DNA from: Spongospora subterranea f. sp. subterranea
Taxonomy: Eukaryota
Length of the DNA: 64,000 bases
Assembly: GCA_049724395.1 (NCBI GenBank)
Contig: JAUGWO010000030.1
Coordinates: 1 to 64,000 of the forward strand
Direction: 5' to 3'
The position numbers and the translations under genes were made by a program. This document shows, piece after piece, positions 26,835 through 42,691 of this stretch; position 1 is the stretch's first letter; the number at the start of each line of letters is the position of its first letter. Under the pieces are notes generated by a model. The model saw nothing but the letters and a program-made list of their open reading frames with translations, was not told the origin of the DNA and did no database searches.

Positions 26835-28019
26835 CTAAAAATATTTTATTTCGAAAACTTTTGGAGTCTGAAAGGCTTCATCCAACAGAGGCTGTGAGCA
26901 TTTGGCCTGGATCCTTGCAATGATGGCTGACAGTTCTTTGGTCGAATCGATCAACGGCCCAAACGCCAACCATTCCACATATAATCGGCAATCTCTCGGC
27001 AGCTCCGACAGCGCATTCGCCGCCTCGATCAGCAAGATTACTCGTATGTGGTTTTGCCGCTCCCTATTGATCATCTCTTTTCCCCTGGCTAGCATTTCCC
27101 TACTCGACCTCCCATCCTCCACCAGCATTCGAGAAATCTGTAGATGCCGATTCGACGTGGCGCTACACAGCGCATCGGAATCGTTGGCATGGGGTGAACA
27201 GCGCCCGTCTTTCAGCAATAGTTTCACGACATTCCGGTGACCCCTTCTGGCGGCATCCACCAACGCGCTCGACTCGATGGAATCGGGTTTCGCCCTACCA
27301 TCACTCAGCAGCAACATCACGATATCATCATAACCACCGGCAGCCGCCTCGCGCAGCGCCTCCGAACTCGAGGCGTCAGGATCGGACCGACCGTCCGCCA
27401 ATAAAAGTTTGACGACATCGGTGTGCCCGCAAGCAGCTGCCAAACGAAGAGCGGCTGAGTTCAAGGCCGACGGATCACTGCGGCCGTCGTGCAAAAGTAA
27501 TTCGACGAATCGGACATCGTTTCGTGAAGCCGCTTGACGAAGACAATATGATTCCAGGGCGGTCGGGTCACCACCGCCTTCCTTGAGAATGTACTCGACC
27601 ACGTTATAGTGCCCGTTCTTGGCCGCTTCGCGAAGTATTCCAACTGAGTCGATGTCGTCGGCGCCCGCCTCGTGCAGAAGGCGAACGATGTCACGGTGGC
27701 CATTGACAGCGGCGACTCTGATGGAGGATACCGCATTGGGATGACAATGCCGACTATGAAGGAGTAGACGAACTAGGTCGATATCGCCCTTCTCGATGGC
27801 GATAATCATTATTCCGTCAAGGCTGGTTGTGGCGCTCGAATACCCGTCAAGTATCGATTTGATACCTTCCAGGGATCCTATTGGCGATCAGTTGACGAAT
27901 GTTGGCGATGATTAGCATTGAATACCTTGTTGAACTGCCGCTATAAGCGGTGATAATTCTCCCAAATCATGATCTTGACAGCGCCCTCTGTCACTGAATA
28001 GATCTTTAAAGAATCTCAT
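26835..28019 (-). CDS. Ankyrin-repeat protein
   Basis: About 7 repeats of the type DP..S.ALR.AA..GH..VV.LLL.DGR; one intron near 27880-27925. Confidence 0.9.
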
Positions 28020-28280
28020 GCGACCGCTATGTCAAGCAACGAATTTGAATATGGAATCTGATTGACCCTTTCATCTTTTCCCGTCATGACCTAAACCCTT
28101 GTCAGGGTTTGCTGCCGAAGCCCTAACCATCACCAGTCCTTTGGTCAATGCACATGACATATTGATTGTGTTGCGTGTTTCACCCTGTTTGACCACCTTT
28201 CCCGGCGATTTCGACTTTGGCGCAATATTCCGGGTCCGGGTTGGAGAGTGACAGAGTCAAGGGGAAGGAGGGACCTGGCA

Positions 28281-29355
28281 ATGGTTATCAACCTATCTTA
28301 CCCTGATAATCATCGCCTCCAACATATATATAACATCTGCACAACCCGTTGGCCCAATATTATTCGCCATTGCCGCCACGACGATATTGCACAAAGTTGT
28401 TCGTTGCGATTTTTTCGGGGGCTTTCCAGTATCTGAACGATGACCTGGTACAGAGACGCTATTCTGCTTATCGCATGCTGGAATCTGCTCGCCCAACGAT
28501 CTATCGTTATTGACTGGGGAAGGTGAATCCTCCGAAGCAATATCGTTATTTGATCGACAACTGCAATTTCATGTCGACCATAAGTCAGTGTTCATATTCC
28601 TTTTCCCCAACAGCGTGTTGAATTGATACAGCAATGCGTTTGACATTTCGACTCATCTATCGTTCATTGCCGATGTCGCCACCCCTGAGGCTTATCGGAA
28701 GGTGTTAACAGGTTATTTATCGTTCATCCGCTCGAAAATCTATCCATATCTGATTATTAATCTTCACTGTTAGGAAAACGAATTGTCTTCCCGTGTGATA
28801 TCATCGTTGATCCTGTAAACAGTTCTACTGCTCCGGAGGACTCTTTAGAATATTTGTCGACACAACTTTCTGAGCTATTGGACAAGGTCGGGCCCGAGAA
28901 TATTGGAATTCCAGATATCGTACCTTCTCACGATAATATTGATCGGCTGATGGAGGTTCTGGAGTTGTTCAATGGCCAATATGATGAATCTTTGTGTCCG
29001 CTTATTGATTCTTCTAACGCTCATCTCAATCCCGACGATCCCCAGTCTATAGGTAGAACATTACTTTATATTGGATTACATTAGAATGGCATGATTTATA
29101 ACAAATTTACAGGGAATATTGGCTCTGTTGTTGAAAATATTGACGGGCACCTGGTCTGATTTTCAAGAAATCATGGGATCACTGCAGCAATTACGTCAGG
29201 GATTAACCGATCTGGCCAAGTTTGGTCAGGGGGGCCAGAACGATGGTGACGATACTGTCGTCAACCCCGCTACAATTGAGCGCCTTCGTTGTGAACTGGA
29301 CATATTATCAAAAGCTAGCCAGCACGCTCGTCGTCGTCAACATGGTGACAGGTAA
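28281..29355 (+). CDS. Hypothetical multi-exon protein
   Basis: Successive short ORFs linked by GT-AG introns, with a helical C-terminal exon. No family recognised. Confidence 0.45.
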
Positions 29356-29478
29356 TTTGCCTGAACCGATCACCATTGTTATTTTGAAAACTGAGCAGTC
29401 GCCGTACTTCCGATTGATACACTACAAACTATATATCATACAAACTTTAATAAATAAACTGTTTCGTTCAAATAATAA

Positions 29479-31065
29479 TCAGGTCGGTCTTGCTTTTTTA
29501 CTCGCGGCGGAATCTGATTGTTCACTTCGCCTTTTGGCATCTTTTTTCTTCTCAATAATCGTGGTGATTTGCTGCCATTGAGTGTTGAGCTTGGATTTTT
29601 CTTTTGACTTGATCTTATTCATCTTTCTGGCAGTTGGGCCCGACGAAGGTGCTTCCACCGGACGTTTGACATCATCATCGCTATCATATCCCATCTGGGC
29701 TCCAGCTGTATACTCGTCATAATCATAATCAAACAGTCGTTCAGCTTTGGATTTTTCTTCGGCGACAAGCTCCGGTTTATCGGACACCCCTGCTTGAGCT
29801 GCTGTCGCTTTCGCTAATAATATAACCCGATTCATGTCAACTTTAGCAACGTGTGCTGGCTGTGCGACTTCTTGTGGCTCATCTTCTTTCTCGAACATGA
29901 TTCGGCCTTTCTTAACATCTGCCGAATCGGCAGCTCGAGGTTCACATACATAGTCATCCAACCCTTCGAATATACTGCACAGCATGTCAGCTTTTACAAG
30001 ACAGTGAAAGCCAGCACAGACTCATCATCATCAGCAGGAATTGCTGTCGGTGGCTCAACGGGCGGGATTACCGAATCAGGAATCGGCTCATATTTGAGAG
30101 GCTTAGCACCTGATCTAATGAACCTCATCGCCTCGTTTAGCTTCGATCGGGTATCGTCAGGGAGTCCTATTATTAAGCGCTGTTAGAACAAGCTCGGTCA
30201 TCAGATTGGGAACCTCCATACTCGTGTTAACTAGGGGAGCCGTCATCCCACAATCTTCATGGCTACGCCGCAGTATAGTCGGCATCGATGCTGAACTCAA
30301 AGCATCGGTATCAAACTCATAAACCATTCGGCCTAAACATTTTGTCTTTAAGTTTTTGCCCGATAAAACCTATCACGCTTCGTACCTGGCAAGAATGTGG
30401 CTAACTGCGATCGTTGTCTGTTTACTCGCTTAGAGACTTGCGATATACATTTGTTGTAAATATTCCTAGCCATTTCCGAATTGAATCTCAACGATTCAGA
30501 GACAGCGACATCATTGCCAAGCTGGAAAACAAAACTTCAAAATTTTTAGTTTAACGAAACTCAGGCCCTCTTACCTTCGACTGATCGGCAGCTTCAGCCA
30601 TGGCTTGCTCTAGTTTTAACTCCTCTTCTTTAAGTTTCGCCTCACGGGAACGTTGGAGTAATAAATAATCGAGACCTTTGACAAGATGTGATCGATCCGC
30701 GTCACCTCCCAAATATTTACTGAGATGTTCAGGCAACGCCTCAACATCGATATTTGTCAACCCATCTTTCTCGGCTATTGCGTTATCGCCGGCAAGCTCA
30801 AGATATCTCGACGCTCTGTGCAATTGTAAATATAGTGCTTCGTAACCGTTTATCGATCTGGTTACAAACCTTGAGCTCTATCTCTGTATCCGGATGGAAG
30901 CAGACTGGGCGTTGTGGTTTTCGAGTTCCCTCTCGATTTATTAGGCCTCGGCAATGACGGCTTCGGAAACTTGGAGGTTTTCCTGGGCGTGTCTTCAACA
31001 TCGACACGCCTCGGTGTGGCAGCAATTCTCCTGAAATCCTCATTGGATAACCCTCCATTATCCAT
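29479..31065 (-). CDS. IK: Protein RED / IK spliceosomal B-complex factor
   Basis: LSNEDFRRIAATPR, YRDRA, SKYLGGDADRSHLVKGLDYLLLQR, C-terminal KLNTQWQQI. Confidence 0.9.
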
Positions 31066-32251
31066 TATAATGTAAATGGCCCTCAGAAGGCCGCTCGTGT
31101 GGTACTCACTTCCGTAACGAGATGTTACACCGACTCCCTGCACGTTACCAGCCGCAGCAGACCCCAGGCTCGCTCTCAACCGCACGGAGTTCTGGTTGAA
31201 CGAGCCGTGTCGACTGGCGGAAGACGGATCCGATCCTTTGGGCGCCGCAATGGCCCGCACCGCCAGTTGCGTCAGGGACGTGGTTTCTGGTGTGTAACAG
31301 CCAGTTGGACTGGGTTTCGAATTCTCTAGACTACGTTTCATCGCTCTTTAACAGATGGACCAACACGCTTGACCACGATACTGTGTTTAAAATGGGTTGC
31401 TGTTAGTGCCCCCCCCCCTCGAATTAGTCAGAGTACTGCGAGCCATTATGATACTCTTTGAGAGCTGCTGTGAGACCTCTGAAACCCATTTTGTTTATTC
31501 CCTTGTTGGAAGTATTGTTTTGTTTGTTGGAGAAAGATGTGGCGGAGCGGGCCACAGCACCGTCTGATGAAAACGGGGTTTCTCCCTGTCAAACAGCGGC
31601 GCTGTCGTGTCTGCAGCGAAACAATTGGCCAGATCATTTGGCCAGAGTCACGTCGTCAGTTTTTTGAAGTTCGGTTGTTCGGGTGGCTGTCCTTCCCTGG
31701 CAGGTGCTGGCAACCCCCCCCCCCTGATGAGAACTTCATTTCTCTCTGGTTTCAAAAATACGTGTAGCAGCGGTTTAGGGTTTAGCGCCATTGATTGGCA
31801 TGCTCTAAGTGAGAGGGGTTCTGTTCTGTTCCCAGTTTATCGTTGTGTATCGTGAAATGAGGAAAACCACCAATTTCTTCTCATTCTACTTGACACATTT
31901 CTGATGCCAAATACAAGTGTACAATGTCAAATCCTGAGTTCATCTTGGTTCCGGCATTCATGAAACCATTAAGAACGACTTTTGCCACAATTTTTTATAG
32001 AACAATTGAAAGCAGTGTTAGTTTCTGAGTATGACCTTCACAAGGTGTTGAACATTTATCGAAAATTGCAATAACACATATTCCTCTGTTATATCCCTTG
32101 CCTTGAACTGATTCTCGTTTCTCTCAATGTCGTATCAGCCTATCCGAGAAAAAACCCATTTGTCCCCGATTCTGTCCTGTAGTCTGTCCAAACTGGACAC
32201 ATTTGGCGAGTATTAAGCATGCGTCTAACCCCATAAGTACATGAGTCATCG

Positions 32252-35200
32252 TTGCCTTCTTCGAATGACTCACAACTGGGATTCCGGAAGTCAATGATTT
32301 CGGAAGTTCATCGTTGGTCACTGAAAATTTCATCCCTCGTCGGTGAAGCTGTCCTACCAAACCATCGATGGGGAATGAAGATGACAACCCCCCGAACGTC
32401 GTTGTCAGCGGTTTGGATCGCGATCCGACTGTCAACACGCCAAACTTTTCCAAAATGGGAATCGATGGATTCCGAAGCCGTTTTATCCAATTTAGAAACG
32501 TCGCCCAATGGTCTCAGCAGTGATGAAGCGGCAGATAGGTTATCGAAAAACGGCTACAATGAGATCAAAGTCCCGCGACCTCCTCGTTCGCGTCGCCTGA
32601 TGACATATCTATGGAGCCCATTGTCGTGGATCTTGGAGCTGGCGATCCTGATCGCGCTCATCTTTAGCCAGTGGTTTGACGCCGTCGTAATATTCGTCCT
32701 GCTCATGGCCAATGCGCTGATCTGTTTCTATGGCGAGCAAGCTTCAGGCAACGCCAGCGCTCTGGTCAAGGATCAGCTCGCCTTGAAATGCCACGCGAAA
32801 CGCGATGGGGAATGGGTTGAGCTCTACGCCGTCAAACTGGTTATTGGGGATATCGTTTCAATTCAAACTGGCGACGTTATCCCGGCGGATGTCAAGCTGT
32901 TAACCAATGGAATACTACGAGTGGATCAGACCGTATCCACAGGGCAGATTGAAACACAGAACAAAAAACAAGGGGATGTTTGCTTTGCTGGATCAGCTGT
33001 AAAATCAGGGACAGGTGATGCCGTTGTCGTTGCCGTTGGCGACGATACGGTATTTGCAGAAGCCGTTAATCTACTGTCGATTACCCACTATTCACGGTTC
33101 TCTCAAGTATTCGCCGCTATATGCAAAGTCGTGGTCGCGTTTATCGGCGTTGTGATTGTGCTGGAACTGGTGACGCAAATGGGTCTCCGAGGGCAATCGT
33201 GGAGGAGTGCGGTCGCCAATACCCTCGTCCTGATCATTGGCGCTGTTCCCATCGCAATGCCAGCGGTGCTGTCGGTGATCATGGCTTGTGGTACCATCGC
33301 CCTATCAAAGAAGGATATCATCGTCCGGCGTCTAACGGCTGTCGAGGAGTTGGCGTCAATGGACATTCTTTGCGCCAATAAATCAGGGACGATCACCTCG
33401 GGACGTCTTGACATAATCGGATCGGAGACGGCAACCTTCAATGGACATACAGCTGAAGAAGTCTTGTTTTATGCCGCCGTTGCTGCACTAACCGATTCTG
33501 ACGATGAAGTTGATAAAGCCGTGATCAAGGCGTGTCCTCAAAGCGATTCGTTGTGGACAGAACTGGAGCTATTGCATTATATTCCATTTGATCCTTTGCA
33601 AAAAAAGACGGTGGCGTCAGTTCGGGTTCGTGCTAACGGAAACACATTACGAGCTGTGAAAGGCGCTCCATGGATATTATTGACGATGGACAAGTATTCA
33701 GAGGCGATGCAAGCTGAAGTGTCAAGCAAGATCGACGATCTGGCCGGAAAAGGGTATGGAACTCTTGGTGTGGCGATTTCTCGTGATCCCGCCGATATGC
33801 CCATCGACCAGGTCCATTGGGAGATAATCGGTCTATTGGCTTTACAAGACCCCCCTCGTGAAGACTCAGTTCAATCGCTGATCGATGCGGAACAGGTCGG
33901 GGTGACCGTGAAGATGGTCACATCGGATCAGCTTTCTAGTGCGGTCGAGACGTGCGCCTTGTTGGGATTATCGTCATCGCTCAAGACTGGGTCTGATCTA
34001 GATTCCAACCCGGACCCGGAGTTCGTTGAAAACGCCGATGGATTCGCACAACTCTATCCTAAGCATAAGTTCGAGGTTGTGAATCGGCTTCAAAAGAAGG
34101 GACACGTTGTCGCGATCACAGGCGATGGAGTTCATGACTGTGCAGCTCTTCAAATGGCGAATATTGGCATTGCGGTCGCTGGCTGCTCGGAAGCATCGAG
34201 AGCTGCATCCGACATCGTTCTGTTGATGCCCGGATTAGCCGTCATTATCGACGCAATTCGTTTGAGTCGTGAAATATTCAGTCGAATGTATTCCTATGCG
34301 ACATACAGCTTGACGGTCTCGTTTCGAATAGTGCTGACGTTCGGATTTCTCACCATCTTCTACGATTGGTATTTCCCGGCTGTGGTGATCTTGTTCCTGG
34401 TCCTGATCAATGACGGAACCATGATAGCGGTTGCTCGTGACGACGCGGTTGGCAGTAAAACCCCTGATAGTTGGAACCTACGAGATCTGTTCATCAGGTC
34501 AATGGCGTTCGGTAGTTGGCTCGCGTTCGGCACTCTATTGCTGTTTCTCATTGCTCGCCATACCCCCATTCTGTCCGGCGCCCTCACCTTGGATTCTCTA
34601 CAATCGTTCGGGGGCTCGTTCAAAGTGGGAAAGAACTCGGACCCTTATTGCAACTGGGAGCTACATTTCCAGAAAAGCACCGCTCTAGGTGTGTGTAATA
34701 ATCTGATGGTTGAACCCAGACAATTTGAAGCTTCAGTTTGGAGGGAATACGTCAGGACCTACTCGATCGAAGGAGATCCTGATTGGCCATGTCATTTCGC
34801 ACTTGGCCAGGAAGTGTGCAATATTCAGCAGGTTCGCCTAGCTAAGCTTCGAAGTCTGATATATCTCGTGGTGTCCATCACTGGCCATGCGACCATTTTC
34901 GTAGTGAGGACGCCAGGATCGATGTGGAAGTCGCGACCCAGCAACGCGCTGATATTGGCGTTCGTGTTTGCCCAATCCATCGCCACCGTCATCGCTGTTA
35001 GTGGTTTCGGTAGAGTGTTCACAGCTCGTACCATCTTCATCGGAATTGGAGTGAAAGCCGCGGTGTTTGCTTGGTTCTGGTCAATTCTTCTAATAATTCC
35101 ACTTGACTTAATCAAGTTCATGATGGCAAAGCGTATGCAGCGTACTGGAGATGGTTCTGCAGGACAAGTTCAAGAGCAAGATGGTGAGGCGACAACTCCA

Positions 35201-35353
35201 CCAAGACAGTCAAATGCCTCGAATACAACAGGTGACGATACGAAAGATAGTGAGGCGACAACTCCACCAAAACAGTCAAACGCCTCGAATACAGCAGATG
35301 ACGATACGAGAAGAACCAGAACGAGCAAAGATATCAACAATAATCAAAAGTGA
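32252..35353 (+). CDS. Intronless P3A plasma-membrane H+-ATPase-like protein with degenerate catalytic motifs (candidate pseudo-ATPase)
   Basis: GLSSDEA, PIAMPAVLSV, KGAP, DPPRED and INDGT plus ~10 TM segments, but CANKSGTIT, TGQI, VTSD and TGDGVHD. The true start is uncertain (in-frame ATGs at 32294, 32375, 32465). Confidence 0.92.
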   Translation: MPSSNDSQLGFRKSMISEVHRWSLKISSLVGEAVLPNHRWGMKMTTPRTSLSAVWIAIRLSTRQTFPKWESMDSEAVLSNLETSPNGLSSDEAADRLSKNGYNEIKVPRPPRSRRLMTYLWSPLSWILELAILIALIFSQWFDAVVIFVLLMANALICFYGEQASGNASALVKDQLALKCHAKRDGEWVELYAVKLVIGDIVSIQTGDVIPADVKLLTNGILRVDQTVSTGQIETQNKKQGDVCFAGSAVKSGTGDAVVVAVGDDTVFAEAVNLLSITHYSRFSQVFAAICKVVVAFIGVVIVLELVTQMGLRGQSWRSAVANTLVLIIGAVPIAMPAVLSVIMACGTIALSKKDIIVRRLTAVEELASMDILCANKSGTITSGRLDIIGSETATFNGHTAEEVLFYAAVAALTDSDDEVDKAVIKACPQSDSLWTELELLHYIPFDPLQKKTVASVRVRANGNTLRAVKGAPWILLTMDKYSEAMQAEVSSKIDDLAGKGYGTLGVAISRDPADMPIDQVHWEIIGLLALQDPPREDSVQSLIDAEQVGVTVKMVTSDQLSSAVETCALLGLSSSLKTGSDLDSNPDPEFVENADGFAQLYPKHKFEVVNRLQKKGHVVAITGDGVHDCAALQMANIGIAVAGCSEASRAASDIVLLMPGLAVIIDAIRLSREIFSRMYSYATYSLTVSFRIVLTFGFLTIFYDWYFPAVVILFLVLINDGTMIAVARDDAVGSKTPDSWNLRDLFIRSMAFGSWLAFGTLLLFLIARHTPILSGALTLDSLQSFGGSFKVGKNSDPYCNWELHFQKSTALGVCNNLMVEPRQFEASVWREYVRTYSIEGDPDWPCHFALGQEVCNIQQVRLAKLRSLIYLVVSITGHATIFVVRTPGSMWKSRPSNALILAFVFAQSIATVIAVSGFGRVFTARTIFIGIGVKAAVFAWFWSILLIIPLDLIKFMMAKRMQRTGDGSAGQVQEQDGEATTPPRQSNASNTTGDDTKDSEATTPPKQSNASNTADDDTRRTRTSKDINNNQK
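35180..35311 (+). repeat. Two-copy 66-bp in-frame tandem repeat in the ATPase-like C-tail
   Basis: Units start at 35180 and 35246 and encode D[GS]EATTPP[RK]QSNASNT[TA][GD]DDT. Confidence 0.95.
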
Positions 35354-36472
35354 AGAACATTTCAAATCGATCTCCTCCTGAATAAAACCATTGTAGTGTC
35401 TTCATCATTGGTTTATTGGTTGGCAGTGACTTTTTTTGTGCACCCTATTATAATTCGATGACAAACTTTCTGAGGGTATGCAGTTACCAAAATTACTTAT
35501 CAAATCGCGTTTGTCCAAGATGAAAGCGAGAGGCGTCAATCTTGTATTGACGCCTACGTACCTGATGTGGTCGGAAAAGCAGTGCCTAATCATAAAACGG
35601 ATCCTTAAGTTTTGGTAAAGTTACAGATAATCCCCATAAAAATCGATTGGTTTTCATATCTTTAAGAAACGTTTGTGTGAAAATAACCTGTTTGATCACC
35701 TAGTCGTGAACGATGCTCCTCCATATATATCCAGGGCTCTGAATTTAGGTGTTTCAAAGTTTGAAGAACCCCTTTTTTTGTAAATAGCCCTAAACAATAA
35801 TCAAATCTATCGTTTTTCATGGGTTTTTGCTACAAATGCCGTCCAGATAGCCTTAGAGCCTGTTGACAGAGATTAACTGGACTTTGGATGGCGTTTTTAC
35901 GACATTTATGACCGATTTCATGGCTATAATCATTTTGGAAAAAATGACAAAACTAACTTAATTCATGAAATGAACTCTTCATAAATTTGATTAGTGAGTC
36001 AAATTAAAAAATCGCCCCAAGCTAATTCAGTTCTCCAGCACCTTCAGAAATCCAGCTGTCACGATATCACCACGATACAAGGCTATCACAGGGAAAATAG
36101 ACATCGCCATTATCGCGACAGCGCCATGGGAGACGATAGACACAGTGATATGCTTGAGCCAGCCACTTGATTGGAAAAATCAATGATTCTTCAACGATAG
36201 AAGAACGGAAGGATATTCAAATGATGAGGTAGATGGAAGCTACGTTATCGGCCATCCCCCGACGATGTAGCCATATCAGGCAACGATGTTCTTGGCCTGA
36301 ATGGTCGGGCACTGTCAATCACAATGCACTGTCATGAAGAAAAACGAGACCATCCTGATACGTGTCAAAATAGGGAATGAACGCCGAATGCGGAACGATC
36401 CTCAAAACAAATGCAGTCTGAATGATGAACCTGACACTCAATTAACGTAACCCGAATATGCACGACACGTAA

Positions 36473-37102
<630 letters not shown>

Positions 37103-37142
37103 CTTGACTGAATATTTTAGCTGCATTATCTTCCACTGTTTA

Positions 37143-38778
37143 TTACGTCCATTCACATCTCCAACGTTCGTCAGTAAGATGAATTTCCTCTAATGTCCAT
37201 TGCTTCTCTTTTAACGATTGGATAAACAAATGAAACGCCTCCTCGGTTTGGGTCTGCAGCTGAGCGTGTTTTGTCCCGATCGATATTACGAAATGACTTT
37301 CGAAGTATGCCTGCAGCACGTGCAATGGTGTTGCAAAACGATGAATCAGCACTTGAGCAGACTGATCCGGTTGTAAACTAATAAGGTATGGTGGTGCTTG
37401 ATGATGCCCAGCTAACTGTTCCGATAACCATTCGTAAGATGATTGACCGGTCCTGAGTAGAATGCATCCGTAATTGAAAATATATTTTATCAACATGCGA
37501 TATCACTTACACAATAGAATGCAACGGCACTCCTAGCTTGATAGCTGGCTCTGTGTTCCACCCCCAAACTGATTCTTTTGAAGCGACTTGGCCAGGGGTC
37601 AGAACTTTGTTGAATCGTGCGAAATGTCGGATCAAGATTGACGCGCGTTGATCATTTAAGGTTGATAGACAAAGTGACGTGACGGCGATGTAGTTGGCGA
37701 CAATATGAAGTAACGTCAACGCGATGAATACCATCCATCTACTGATTTGTGATTGAAGAAAGAGCGACAATCCTGATCCTAGAGCGAGTCCCAGTAGCGA
37801 CACGATAGTCTCCTGTGTTCCCTCCTTCGAGTAAATATCCGATATCAGAGCGCTGTTGCCTCTCTGTTTCACGAAGTGCTGGGTTATGGACGCCTTACTG
37901 GCCCCCGCTGCCACACCGCATACGGCAGAACAAATCGCGCCAAGACATGCCACAAGAAGAAACAGGTCGCCTGCTAACGGTGCTGCCATTGTTAATGTCA
38001 GCCCGACATCGTTCATACAACTATCAGACACAGCATGAGTAAAAAATCGGTGATATCAAAAGTAAAAGGTTTTATACTAACTCTGCAAAGAGACGCCATC
38101 GCTTGGGATTTGCACCAATATCGGATGACGTGCGGAAGGCGAATAAAACACCTCCCAACATGGACATGCCGGCTGTAGAATAGAATTTGCCCATGAAAGA
38201 TTGGGGATTCCAAGACGAACTGCTTACACAATAACGTCCACGATAATGCCGCTGATGTGACACTAGCTGATGCATTGCCGACACCGAAACCCGTCATCAA
38301 TGATTGCTGGCCTACGTAACTGTTCAGAGACCGAACAAGGAACGGTGCCGATTCTCATTCATCAACAGACTGACAGAGAATGCCACGAAGATATGATGAT
38401 AGACCTTGAACGGTGTCCCAAATTTGGAAAACGGTGTAATCAGGGCTAACACTGTTGGGATATCCACGAGGAAGAATTAATGATAAAAACCCCTGTAAAA
38501 ACACATAGAAATTACGTGGGAAAATTCTATGGACAGCACTACTGGCCGGCAAAGATTTCAACGCAAATCAAAAAAACATTTCTACCGAAGAACAAAATCT
38601 GAGAAACTGCATATTTTACCTGCAGTACTGACTGAGGCTTCATTCTCAATGGCTCTCCGACAGTAAAGCTATGCGATTGTTTCCACAGCCCCTCTCCGTA
38701 CGTCTCCCGCAACCGAACCCGCTGGGGAACGGGCCGTTCCGGTTTACTGCTGCGCCTCAAACCGGCCCTCGACTTCAT
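37143..38778 (-). CDS. RUS1 / root-UVB-sensitive family (DUF647) protein
   Basis: LPRGYPNSVSPDY..FQIWDTVQGLSSYLRG, GFGVG, PKRWRLFAE, GASKASITQHF..SKEGTQETIVSLLG, LSTLNDQR. Confidence 0.9.
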
Positions 38779-39102
38779 GATTTCGGGTCTGGTGTTGGGG
38801 TCGGCGGGGGGTTCGAAATCATTGACTGCACATTATCACGTGGCCGATTTCGGTTACGTTGGCAGTCGGCAAAGGGTGTGTATCGTTTTTATTCGATACA
38901 TGGGCGATACGTAGTAGTAGGGGTCCCGCCATTTTCAACTCATGTCGCCAGGCTGCGCCAGAACCCTTCACAAATCTAATCGGCCGGGGAGGTTAAGCTT
39001 GGCTTTGCTGCTGTTGGTCGAGCTACGAACAGGGGCAGTACGACGGTGCGCGATCGGCTGTGTCGCGCGCTTGGGGTCACGCTTGGGGGCAACTGCCTGA
39101 AA

Positions 39103-39864
39103 ATGGAGGGAGAACGCATCAAGAGTATAATATAGGAGTACGCGAGATTCGCTTGTTGTATTGGATTATCCGTTTTAAGACTCTTCAAGAAAATCCATTT
39201 TCAGAGTGTATTCACAGCCATGATCACCTCGATCTCGTAGACGTCGTTGATCAATCACTGCATGCGACTCTAGAATTATTGGTGTCGCTTTTGACGTGGT
39301 AATTGCATCCACCGGTACATCAAGTCGCACATGCTTGATGAAGCGTCCAACTTTGAAGTTGTTAACTTGACTCCAACATCATCGAACCTCTTTGAAGTAC
39401 CCTCAACACGCCGGGTACAACAACTCAAGCATAACGGTTTATGCTGGAACCGATACATCTTTGTCGTTATCCCGGCCGGAACCGCTTCCTTTTTTTAGAA
39501 AGTTTCAAACAATTATAGTTTGACGTTCAGTTGATCTGGGCGATCTCCCTGCGGAAGAATTCTCTACAAACCGGCTGAAATGTGGAGGGCCAGTCGTCGT
39601 TGTCTCGAGAAAACCAAAATCTCCATTGCGGCTGTTTGCACCTATAATACATCTGACGGTTTACGACGCTTAGATCATGAAATGCCAGGAACGGCCTGCG
39701 TTGATCCATTCGATGCGATCCAGATCCAGGACCCGAACGGGTATCAAAGATGGGCGGATTTGGCACATGGCGCGGAATTCACAGTGTTTAGAGGTCGCTT
39801 CTGGTTAAACGAGGGCACATCAGCACTAATCGTTTTCGGAAAACGTTGTCGTATCAACTTCTAG
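39103..39864 (+). CDS. Possible hypothetical multi-exon gene
   Basis: Short ORF segments with plausible splice sites, divergent from RUS1. No family recognised. Confidence 0.25.
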
Positions 39865-40373
39865 TAAAACTGAGATTTGAGATAATGGGCTTTGCAATAA
39901 TGCTCGTCGTTTCTGTCACCAACCAAATTGTTTCAGTCCAACAAGGCCGTTCAAAAAACCTACTGCCGGTTCTGAGCAATTGCCGCAGATTACCTCGTTG
40001 ACCCAAGTGTCATCTCCCGGATTGGAATCTCGATATTTACGGGAGCGGTGGAGACGGCGCGCACGAGATCAGGGTTTGGGGGGGGGGGTGAGGAGGAGGA
40101 TGGATCGTTGGACGAGATATTATGGGTGAACCCAGGCAATCCTTGGATTCCATTGGGGTATCTAAAACCCTCATCGACTGGGACACTGACCAAAGGCGAT
40201 TGGCTAGCTGTCTCTGCCCGTTAGGCTGAACGGCATCCGACGGCTGCCCGGCGACCATCATAACTTCCCCCACAACCGCATACGCGACACCATATGCCGA
40301 CGGCTCAACCGTCGTTGGAATAAGACCACGTTCGCCGCCGTCCATCCGCGCCTGGTCCACCGGTGTCGCCTCC

Positions 40374-41651
40374 ATGGTTGGATTATGTGGAATACCGTGT
40401 CTGGCGACAGATTGGATGAAGGAGCAAGCCGTGTCGAAAGAGATTGAGGTGGCGGCTGCCAAGGAGATCGCGGCGATGTCGGAGATCAAGAAGCTGCTGT
40501 TGCTAGGGGCCGGGGAATCCGGCAAGAGCACGTTATTCAAGTGAGTTGATTGCCAACACCGCCAACAGCCATCAACCGGTCCTGATGCGGCTTGTGCAGG
40601 CAAATGATCAAACTATACGGGGCTGGATATTCGCAGGAAGAGCGACAGAAGTTCGACCACATCATATTCGCGAACGTGATCTCGGCGATCCAGGCGCTGG
40701 TTCGGAACACGGAGCGGCTGAAGGTGAAATACCCCCATCTCGATACTCAGATTAAGGTGCAGAATCGGGACCACGCCCACGCCGTCATGGTGCTCAAGGC
40801 CGACAGCGTCCTGACCGCCGAGATCGGCGAGCACATCAAGCAGCTGTGGAACGATCCCGGCATCCGATGCACGTTCGTCAACAGGAGCAAGTTCCAGCTC
40901 ACCGACAACTCGAACTGGTTCTTCGACAGGATCGACGAAGTGTGCAAGGCGGGCTATTGCCCATCCGAAGCCGATATACTCAGGTCGAGGGTTAGGACGA
41001 CCGGGATCGTCGAGACCGAATTCGAGCTCGAGAACAGCAAGTTTCAGATGTTCGATGTCGGAGGGCAACGAAACGAACGCAAGAAATGGAGTGAGTTTGG
41101 GCGTCGTTCGTCGCTTTTGTTGCTGATTCTGGTTCTGGCCTCCAGTTCATTGTTTCGACAGCGTGACCGCCGTAATATTTGTGGCGGCGATGAGCGATTA
41201 CGATCAGGTCCTGTACGAGGACGGCACCACGAACCGGATGCACGAGGCGCTGACCCTGTTCACCGATATCGTGAACTCCGAGTGGTTCCAGTCGACCCCG
41301 GTGATCCTGTTCCTGAACAAGAGCGACCTGTTCGCCGAGAAGATCAAGCTCGTCCACATCAACGTCTGTTTCCCTCAGTATTTTGGCCAGCAAGAGTTCG
41401 AGCCTTGCGCCCAATATATCAAACAGGCATTCGAGGTGATGATTGGCTGTTTCGGTGGTTCCCCGCCAAACTGACTCGTTTTCTGTTTTGTGTTGGCGCG
41501 ATTGATTGTTCAGTCCCGAAATATGAACGCCAACAAACCGGTCTATACACACATCACATGTGCGACAGATAGCGAGAACGTCAACCACGTGTTTACAGCT
41601 GTGAAGGATATCGTCATTCGGAGATCGCTAAGCGATATTGGTCTACTATGA
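40374..41651 (+). CDS. Heterotrimeric G-protein alpha subunit (4 exons)
   Basis: LLLLGAGESGKST, RVRTTGI, DVGGQRNERKKW, FLNKSD, TCATD, C-terminal DIGLL. Confidence 0.96.
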
Positions 41652-41974
41652 GAGACATAGCTTATTCATCCTGTTTTTGATGTTTAATTGCAAACATCCA
41701 AAAAAAAAACAAATACAAAATAGTACATTTACTTGGACAAATATCATTTTGAAGACGTTTTTAGCGGGCTGTTACCAGAGAATCAGTTCATAACTAGTTT
41801 CGAGCTCTTCTCAACTCAAAACAAACATTTTTATACCTGGTAGCGTTGTTTTATATGGAGATATATGGTCTGAAGCGCTAATATCAATATGATCACGGAG
41901 TCCGTGACGCATTGTCCACCCTCTGCGTCAGCATATCGCCATCCCGAGGGCTATCACAGGCTAGCGTACCGACC

Positions 41975-42691
41975 ATGAAGCTGAATATCTCGTACCCGGC
42001 AACGGGCCTGCAGAAATGCATCACGATCGAGGACGACAATAAGCTGGTCGCCCTGTACGATAAGCGCATGTCCCACGAGGTCAACGGCGGGGACCTCGGC
42101 GAGGAATTCTCCGGATACGTCTTCCGGATTATGGGCGGAAACGATAAGCAAGGGTTCCCAATGAAGCAGGGTGTTTTGACCAACGGTCGTGTTCGTCTTT
42201 TGCTTAAGAAGGGCAGCTCTTGCTACAGGCCCCGTACTAAGGGTGAGCAGAAGCGCAAATCCGTTCGCGGATGCATTGTCGGCTCCGATCTTTCCGTCAT
42301 CCACCTGGTCGTGACCAAGAAGGGCGACAATGAAATCGAGGGTCTCACCGATTCCATCAAACCTCGTCGTCTTGGACCTAAACGTGCCACCCGTATCCGT
42401 AAATTGTTCAACTTGGACAAGGAGGACGATGTTCGCTCATACGTCATCAAGCGCAAGATCGTGAAGGGCGACAAAACCTTCACCAAGGCGCCCAAGATTC
42501 AGCGTCTGGTGACCCCTCAGCGCCTGCAGCGCAAACGCCGCTGGGTCGCCGAACAGCGCCAGCGTATCGAAAAGAGCAAGGCGACCGCCGAGGAATACAA
42601 TACCCTGGTCAACCTGCGCCTCAAGGAGGAGAAGGACCGTAAAGCCCAGAGAAAGGCCAGCCGTAAAACATCCCGTATCTCGAACCAGTAG
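41975..42691 (+). CDS. RPS6: 40S ribosomal protein S6 (eS6), intronless
   Basis: [57 protein letters not shown]. Confidence 0.98.

What the first reader, a model, noticed from the sequence alone, without database searches (positions are those of the whole stretch)
32252..35353. Intact P3A H+-ATPase homolog with both catalytic carboxylates amidated but the proton pathway kept: candidate pseudo-pump
Seen: in a ~3-kb ORF with no stops, the phosphorylation motif reads CANKSGTIT (AAT at 33377; normally CSDKTGTLT). The A-domain motif reads TGQI (32939; normally TGES), the P-domain TGD reads TSD (33920), and the hinge reads TGDGVHDCAAL (34118; normally [11 protein letters not shown]). The membrane features are kept: M2 Asn (LLMANAL), PIAMP, M5 Arg (SFRIV) and M6 Asp (INDGT, 34412), as are KGAP and DPPR. 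Established: the DKTGT Asp and TGES Glu are required for P-type phosphorylation and dephosphorylation, D->N and E->Q are classic inactivating changes, and the M6 Asp, M2 Asn and M5 Arg form the P3A proton site. Inference: selective loss of chemistry with fold and H+ site kept suggests a repurposed protein (passive H+ conductance, pH/nucleotide sensor or regulatory subunit) rather than random decay.
Basis: partly seen in the sequence, partly recalled or inferred. Interest (0 to 1): 0.88.

Follow-up and report, generated by a model that had tools for sequence, protein, structure and literature searches.

The report
Dead proton pump kept by parasites
The potato powdery-scab parasite transcribes an intact proton-pump gene that lacks the residues needed to split ATP, and the clubroot parasite carries an even more disabled sister gene, so this is likely an old non-pumping protein that would serve as a partner subunit or sensor rather than as a pump.

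Summary
The motif changes are real: all lie at the stated positions and stand in assembled contigs of several sequencing runs, two of them spliced RNA. The gene is Spongospora subterranea UniRef A0A0H5QW77 (994 aa, ATG at 32368). The decisive result is a sister protein in Plasmodiophora brassicae (PBRA_007898; full form P0291). It shares the TGE-to-Q change and has lost every other catalytic and nucleotide motif, yet is a full-length reading frame. Between the two, the P, A and M1-M4 parts have decayed below all 153 working-pump pairs, while the N domain, M5-M10, the M5 Arg/M6 Asp pair and a cysteine-rich outer M7-M8 loop are kept. So this is an old pseudo-pump lineage under selection, not a young pseudogene. 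Best guess (0.4): a non-pumping partner subunit of the working pump. Rivals: pH or ligand sensor (0.25), passive leak (0.15). No function was shown, and a working partner in the same genome could not be checked.

The parts
32368..35353 (+). Coding sequence of the pseudo-pump, 994 aa, no intron (P0002 = UniRef A0A0H5QW77 / CRZ06243.1, Spongospora subterranea)
   Evidence: the spliced RNA contig of X3 has no joint in 30870-35388
32452..32452 (.). Extra base in the window (assembly slip) that shifts the first 28 codons out of frame
   Evidence: absent in X1, X2, X3
32621..32737 (+). M1-M2, with M1 Glu90, M2 Asp104 and M2 Asn115 (32711) kept; L1-2 Asp is Gln101, one entry Glu is Gly122
32939..32950 (+). 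A-domain loop TGQI in place of TGES; the Glu-to-Gln change is shared with the Plasmodiophora sister (TSQT)
33371..33397 (+). Phosphorylation motif CANKSGTIT; Asn337 at 33377 in place of the phospho-Asp
33410..33838 (+). N domain: Phe407 and KGAP kept, invariant Arg is Gly464 (33758); lineage-specific stretches (ACPQ..LW.ELEL, VASVRVRANGNT, SRDP.DMP) shared with the sister and with P0003
33920..33928 (+). TSD in place of TGD
34118..34150 (+). Hinge TGDGVHDCAAL in place of [11 protein letters not shown]
34280..34564 (+). M5-M7, with M5 Arg653 (34325) and M6 Asn681-Asp682 (34409-34414) kept in both species
34565..34834 (+). About 90-aa M7-M8 loop (outer side by P3A topology) with four Cys and conserved aromatic residues; no Pfam or Atlas match
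34835..35143 (+). M8-M10
35144..35350 (+). Low-confidence (likely disordered) C-terminal tail with a 66-bp tandem repeat of 2.1 copies at 35178-35314
35354..35388 (+). Likely 3' end of the transcript: RNA contigs of two studies (X3, X17) stop at 35388 where DNA contigs go on; a weak hint only

Best explanation
This is a transcribed, full-length P3A proton-pump paralogue that lacks the phosphorylated Asp and the dephosphorylating Glu, so it is predicted not to pump, and it likely works as a non-catalytic partner subunit that would bind and anchor or tune the parasite's working pump. Shown: the sequence, transcription, the sister gene in Plasmodiophora, and which parts are kept. From established P-type chemistry: without Asp337 there is no phosphoenzyme and no ATP-driven cycle. 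Inferred: a duplicate lost catalysis before Spongospora and Plasmodiophora split; the parts that do chemistry (P, A) or move during transport (M1-M4) were released; the static M5-M10 block, the outer M7-M8 loop and an N-domain surface were kept because they make contacts. The retained Asp682-Arg653 pair may be structural or may make the protein pH-responsive. The core claim (dead pump kept by selection) I put at about 0.9; the partner-subunit mechanism at 0.4.
For: Sister gene: P0136/P0291 groups with P0002 at 95/89 on the full alignment, with three other degenerate long-branch pumps in the tree, and at 100/99 on N + M5-M10 + loop columns, where the alternative grouping is rejected at p=0.0002. 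Shared derived residues: 52, against 24 and 9 for the two other pairings. The Glu-to-Gln change is shared. Branch length after the split, relative to mean working-pump tips: P 11.5x, M1-M4 4.1x, A 2.8x, N 1.1x, M5-M10 1.2x. Ss-Pb identity is below all 153 working-pump pairs in P (26%), A (34%) and M1-M4 (35%), but not in N (40%) or M5-M10 (47%). The loop is the one part clearly more alike within the pair (42%) than to P0003 (25%, 35%). Neutral decay is rejected: at the rate giving about 30 changes at invariant sites, 0 of 400 simulations stayed stop-free and 0 of 400 were as conservative. 2 of 2 polymorphisms in the ORF are silent. Both AlphaFold models keep the P3A fold (pLDDT 80 and 77). Precedent: in Pma1 only TMH1/2/4B move and subunits pack through TMH7/10 against TMH3/4 (PMC8575881, passages); P3A pumps form oligomers (PMC10654040 section 9); PH1 does not pump H+ alone but boosts PH5 (same review, passages).
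Against: A working pump in the same genome was not shown: no genome is held and P0003 comes from an unnamed assembly. A supplement names a second S. subterranea 'plasma membrane ATPase' entry, A0A0H5QP08, whose sequence I did not see. A search with the C-terminal part of P0003 returned no Plasmodiophora or Spongospora protein among 11 hits from 1212 candidates; that word search also missed P0002, so it says little. M7 is only 33% identical within the pair and M3-M4 39%, and both lost the Cys loop between M3 and M4, so the Pma1-type interface is not specially kept. On the full alignment the AU test does not reject P0002+P0003 (p=0.137); the columns for the p=0.0002 test were chosen after I had seen the pattern. 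The working-pump pairs are mostly far more distant than Ss-Pb, so N and M5-M10 are 'least relaxed', not proven fully constrained. Only two species; synteny and protein expression were not checked.
Confidence: 0.4

Rival explanations
1. A pump turned sensor: the outer cysteine-rich loop and the buried Asp682-Arg653 pair would read outside pH or a host or soil ligand, and the conserved N-domain surface would pass the signal to a cytosolic partner, with no transport.
For: The loop is the part most specifically kept in the pair: 17 shared derived residues against 3 and 3, with four Cys and several aromatic residues. Asp682, Asn681, Arg653 and Asp104 survive in both species while their neighbours in M1-M2 decay. 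Arg at this M5 position is found in only 46 of 151 rows, so the family does not demand it there. Degenerate P-type modules occur in the P4-guanylate cyclase signalling proteins (PMC13466520, passages).
Against: No signalling domain is fused. The loop also exists, with Cys, in the working pump P0003. A buried Asp-Arg pair may persist because losing one charge strands the other (inference). The loop matched no known domain.
Confidence: 0.25
2. An uncoupled passive H+ or cation leak: the membrane domain would flip or stay open without ATP and let ions run downhill.
For: Asn115, Arg653, Asp682, Glu90, Asp104 and both M4 prolines are kept in S. subterranea.
Against: The helices that line and gate the path (M1-M4) are relaxed 4.1x. 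The sister has His for the M2 Asn and lacks the M1 Glu and both M2 entry glutamates. In Pma1 the gates move with the ATP-driven A domain.
Confidence: 0.15
3. A decaying pseudogene that happens to be still open and transcribed.
For: 42 of 179 near-invariant positions are changed, against 12 in P0003 and at most 15 in any other of 64 rows. No peptide evidence was found in three supplement searches (one file was cut when stored). At a low rate (11 changes) 7.5% of simulations stay open.
Against: Open frames of 994 and 1064 codons in two genera at 36% identity; decay is sorted by domain; simulation at the matching rate rejects it; silent polymorphisms.
Confidence: 0.05
4. Still an active pump by an unusual route, for example phosphorylation of another residue or RNA editing of the motif codons.
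For: Lys338, Lys567, Asp586, Asp590, KGAP and DPPR remain in S. subterranea; it passes the TIGR01647 cut-off (752 against 615.5).
Against: RNA contigs X3 and X8 read the same letters as DNA at the motifs, so editing is not seen (contigs drop rare variants). Four catalytic motifs are changed together, and the sister has none left.
Confidence: 0.03

Closest known systems
P3A plasma-membrane H+-ATPases (Arabidopsis AHA2, PDB 5KSD; yeast Pma1, 7VH5/7VH6; TIGR01647)
   Same: Sequence (E 2.7e-161 to 5KSD), fold (TM 0.71/0.84), ten-helix layout, M5 Arg and M6 Asp.
   Different: No phospho-Asp, no TGES Glu, TGD and GDGVND changed, N-domain Arg lost; long Cys-rich M7-M8 loop; sister gene with no catalytic motif left.
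Petunia PH1 (P3B) in the PH1-PH5 pump pair
   Same: A P3-type protein that does not pump H+ alone and boosts a P3A pump it binds (PMC10654040, passages): the model for the best explanation.
   Different: PH1 is P3B. From recall, it keeps the catalytic motifs and lacks the membrane Asp, the reverse of this case. No binding is shown here.
Degenerate P4-ATPase modules of P4-guanylate cyclases (Cryptosporidium, Plasmodium P4GC-beta, Tetrahymena)
   Same: Natural loss of the DKTGT Asp and the A-domain Glu with the fold kept (PMC13466520, passages).
   Different: Those are flippase-type modules fused to a cyclase; this is a stand-alone P3A protein with no fused output domain.
Engineered D-to-N and E-to-Q P-type ATPase mutants
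   Same: The same two substitutions, used to block phosphorylation and dephosphorylation (D-to-N in P4GC-alpha is lethal; the general use is recalled).
   Different: Here they are natural, fixed and come with further losses.

Membership tests
P3A H+-ATPase (by descent) | Best family model is TIGR01647 above its curated cut-off | tested here: met
   752.1 bits against 615.5; next family 265.7. The sister P0291 scores 390.2, best family the same but under the cut-off.
P3A H+-ATPase (by descent) | P-type fold with A, P, N domains and ten membrane helices | tested here: met
   AlphaFold models, Pma1 and AHA2 ranked first; the models lean on alignments of working pumps
P3A H+-ATPase (working pump) | Phosphorylated Asp in DKTGT | tested here: not met
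   Asn337; Thr in the sister
P3A H+-ATPase (working pump) | TGES Glu in the A domain | tested here: not met
   Gln in both species
P3A H+-ATPase (working pump) | TGD and GDGVND motifs of the P domain | tested here: not met
   TSD and GDGVHD; SAD and GTSGSH in the sister
P3A H+-ATPase (working pump) | Nucleotide-site residues of the N domain (Phe, KGAP Lys, Arg; roles recalled from AHA2 and SERCA) | tested here: inconclusive
   Phe407 and Lys431 kept, Arg is Gly464; all three lost in the sister
P3A H+-ATPase (working pump) | Membrane site: M6 Asp, M5 Arg, M2 Asn | tested here: met
   All three kept in S. subterranea; the sister has His for the M2 Asn
P3A H+-ATPase (working pump) | ATP-driven H+ export | not testable with these tools
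   needs biochemistry
Pseudoenzyme (dead homologue kept by selection) | Catalytic residues lost, frame intact and transcribed, constraint on other parts | tested here: met
   protein expression not shown
PH1-like partner subunit | Binds a working P3A pump of the same cell and changes its activity | not testable with these tools
   No genome is held, so the native partner is not in hand

The most novel reading that the evidence does not exclude
Plasmodiophorid parasites turned a proton pump into a surface pH or ligand receptor: the M6 Asp-M5 Arg pair and the cysteine-rich outer loop sense the outside, the dead cytosolic head serves as a docking platform, and the protein helps decide resting-spore germination or zoospore host-finding. 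Clubroot is known to depend on soil pH (recalled), which makes this testable. The other degenerate P3A proteins seen in fungi, a poppy and unnamed assemblies would then be repeated, independent births of pseudo-pumps.
Probability: 0.2. Interest if true: 0.88.

Novelty: new variant of a known kind. Interest (0 to 1): 0.72.

Why it matters
P-type ATPases are defined by a phosphorylated Asp, and databases name this protein an active 'plasma membrane ATPase'. A stand-alone dead P3A pump kept across two genera would add a pseudoenzyme class to the family and is a natural experiment in which parts of the pump matter without catalysis. It lies in two crop parasites whose membrane biology is little known. 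In eight paper searches I found no description of it or of a stand-alone dead P3A pump; the library lacks most subscription journals.

Tried and rejected
No whole genome is held, so paralogues and synteny could not be read. A JGI metagenome scan with P0002 gave 1 weak locus out of 80 pattern matches (L001, 54 residues); dropped. A scan of prokaryote genomes for the motif with Asn gave 4 loci; none showed the TGQ change, and the one full-length P3A-like gene (L005) has its other motifs intact, so no bacterial family of this kind was found by that exact pattern. Complex prediction of the P+N parts of P0002 with P0003 gave no verdict (score 0.01, alignments not used, stand-in partner); it is used neither for nor against. 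ESM Atlas gave only general P3A/P3B clusters and nothing for the loop. Supplement searches found no A0A0H5QW77 or CRZ06243 and no PBRA_007898. Transcripts named 'plasma membrane ATPase' that change on germination or in planta could not be tied to this gene. One proteomics paper is not held. Earlier scan findings: three look-ups empty, one gave unrelated prokaryote notes. My motif filter missed P0136 because its site did not align; the tree found it. Runs X7, X8 and X17 leave parts of the gene uncovered, which proves nothing. Rejected: sequencing error at the motifs, RNA editing, the 1019-aa reading from 32294, and nucleotide sensing as the shared role.

Full report
Observation. The protein is a P3A H+-ATPase homologue (TIGR01647, 752 bits against a cut-off of 615.5; best solved relative AHA2). 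It matches P0002, UniRef A0A0H5QW77 / CRZ06243.1 of Spongospora subterranea. The window has one extra base at 32452 that is absent in X1, X2 and X3, the 3 runs that cover it. Without it the frame starts at ATG 32368 and gives P0002 exactly, 994 aa.

Reads and transcription. I laid 6 of the 19 listed runs, all as Logan contigs. X1 and X2 (possible sources of this DNA) and X3 span the gene; X7 and X8 cover it in pieces, some motifs near piece ends; X17 covers only the 3' end. None shows another letter at a motif codon. X3 and X8 show GT..AG and CT..AC joints in neighbouring genes, so they hold spliced RNA, and one X3 contig carries both those joints and the whole gene without a joint inside it. 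X3 and X17 both stop at 35388, a weak hint of the 3' end. The two polymorphisms in the ORF are silent. X7 has a 1-base gap at 34457 at depth 3.2 that three other runs lack. No peptide evidence was found (one file cut when stored).

Extent of change. At 179 positions that are 95% invariant in 61 reference rows (mostly prokaryote-type), P0002 differs at 42, its closest working relative P0003 at 12, and no other of the 64 rows at more than 15. Under neutral decay at the rate that gives about 30 such changes, 0 of 400 simulations stayed free of stops and 0 of 400 were as conservative as observed; at a rate giving 11 changes, 7.5% stayed open.

The sister gene. A search of 50%-identity representatives (best 150 listed) and a tree of 160 of 167 rows (7 short rows dropped) placed P0136 next to P0002. 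It is Plasmodiophora brassicae PBRA_007898. P0291, from an unnamed Logan assembly, is 98% identical and 94 residues longer, filling a P-domain gap in the NCBI model. Its motifs read TSQT, ITSDGH, IGTP, EGDD, SAD and GTSGSH: nothing catalytic is left. Under a site-mixture model the pair has support 95/89 and joins P0003 at 100/99, with other degenerate pumps elsewhere. The AU test on the full alignment does not reject P0002+P0003 (p=0.137). On N, M5-M10 and loop columns, picked after I saw the pattern, the pair has 100/99 and the alternative is rejected (p=0.0002); shared derived residues over all domains are 52 against 24 and 9. The Gln for the TGES Glu is shared, so catalysis was probably lost before the genera split. 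Orthology rests on trees, not synteny.

What selection keeps. Branch lengths after the split, relative to working-pump tips, are 11.5x in P, 4.1x in M1-M4, 2.8x in A, 1.1x in N and 1.2x in M5-M10 (20 rows). Identity within the pair is below all 153 working-pump pairs in P, A and M1-M4, but above 90% of them in N and 67% in M5-M10. Those pairs are mostly more distant, so N and M5-M10 are the least relaxed parts, not proven fully constrained. The M7-M8 loop is 42% identical within the pair against 25% and 35% to P0003. Asp682, Asn681, Arg653 and Asp104 are kept in both; the M2 Asn, M1 Glu and M2 entry glutamates are lost in Plasmodiophora. Both models keep the P3A fold, with low confidence at the dead motifs, the loop and the tails.

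Mechanism. The Asp and Glu are required for the cycle (PMC13466520, passages). In Pma1 only TMH1/2/4B move, and subunits pack through TMH7/10 against TMH3/4 (PMC8575881, passages; bioRxiv 10.1101/2021.04.30.442159, passages). Here the moving and chemical parts are released and the static parts are kept, which fits a contact role better than a transport role. P3A pumps form oligomers, and PH1 is a precedent for a non-pumping partner (PMC10654040, passages and section 9). I therefore favour a partner subunit of the working pump (0.4), then a sensor (0.25), a leak (0.15), a pseudogene (0.05) and an unusual active pump (0.03); the rest is unlisted roles. Against the favourite: M7 (33%) and M3-M4 (39%) are not specially kept, the M3-M4 Cys loop is lost, and the partner's presence in this genome is unchecked. 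A supplement names a second S. subterranea entry, A0A0H5QP08 (PMC8256667, passages and supplement search), that I could not read.

Comparison and novelty. By descent it is P3A; as a working pump it fails three defining motif tests. Dead P-type modules are known in fused P4-guanylate cyclases, and PH1 is a non-pumping partner. Eight searches found no stand-alone dead P3A lineage and no mention of this gene; subscription papers and unseen supplements could hold one. Also seen: PMC8471823 (supplement search, passages), PMC7397026 (supplement search), PMC4471660 (supplement search, passages). Among 151 rows, 141 keep DKTGT, 2 did not align, and the others include unrelated degenerate pumps, so pseudo-pumps may have arisen several times; those were not checked for error or pseudogene status. 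Verdict: real, old, under selection, function open; new variant of a known kind; interest 0.72.

Noticed in passing
P0136 versus P0291: The NCBI model of P. brassicae PBRA_007898 lacks about 94 residues of the P domain that the Logan form carries; probably a falsely called intron.
   Followed up: partly
P0209 (cluster with P0282, P0283), P0189: P3A-like proteins from unnamed assemblies with decayed motifs. P0209 has NKTGT, TGQ and GSAVTD, the same two amide changes as here; it groups with a Streptomyces pump, so the change is independent.
   Followed up: partly
P0156, P0219, P0248, P0145, P0279: Further degenerate P3A proteins in Artomyces (EKTGT), Trametes (GKTGS), Papaver (NKTGV), Phalansterium and an unnamed assembly; not checked for error or pseudogene status.
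   Followed up: partly
window 29153, 31711, 32452, 35752, 45098: The window has extra bases relative to contigs of two or more runs at each place; other ORF calls here may be shifted.
   Followed up: partly
window 30870-32367: RNA contigs cover the stretch between the divergent upstream gene and this ATG, which suggests a long leader or overlapping divergent transcription.
   Followed up: no
window 32368-35353: The gene has no intron while its neighbours have many of about 50-60 bases; P0291 also reads as one frame. A retrocopy origin is possible but untested.
   Followed up: no
window 26835-42691: Neighbours are ordinary: ankyrin protein, RED-like C-terminal piece (under cut-off), EF-hand protein (centrin-like by recall), UVB_sens_prot domain, G-alpha, ribosomal protein S6. 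No link to the pseudo-pump is implied.
   Followed up: partly
L002-L005: Four prokaryote genomes carry the phosphorylation motif with Asn. L003 is split over two frames and L005 is otherwise canonical; likely errors or young pseudogenes.
   Followed up: partly
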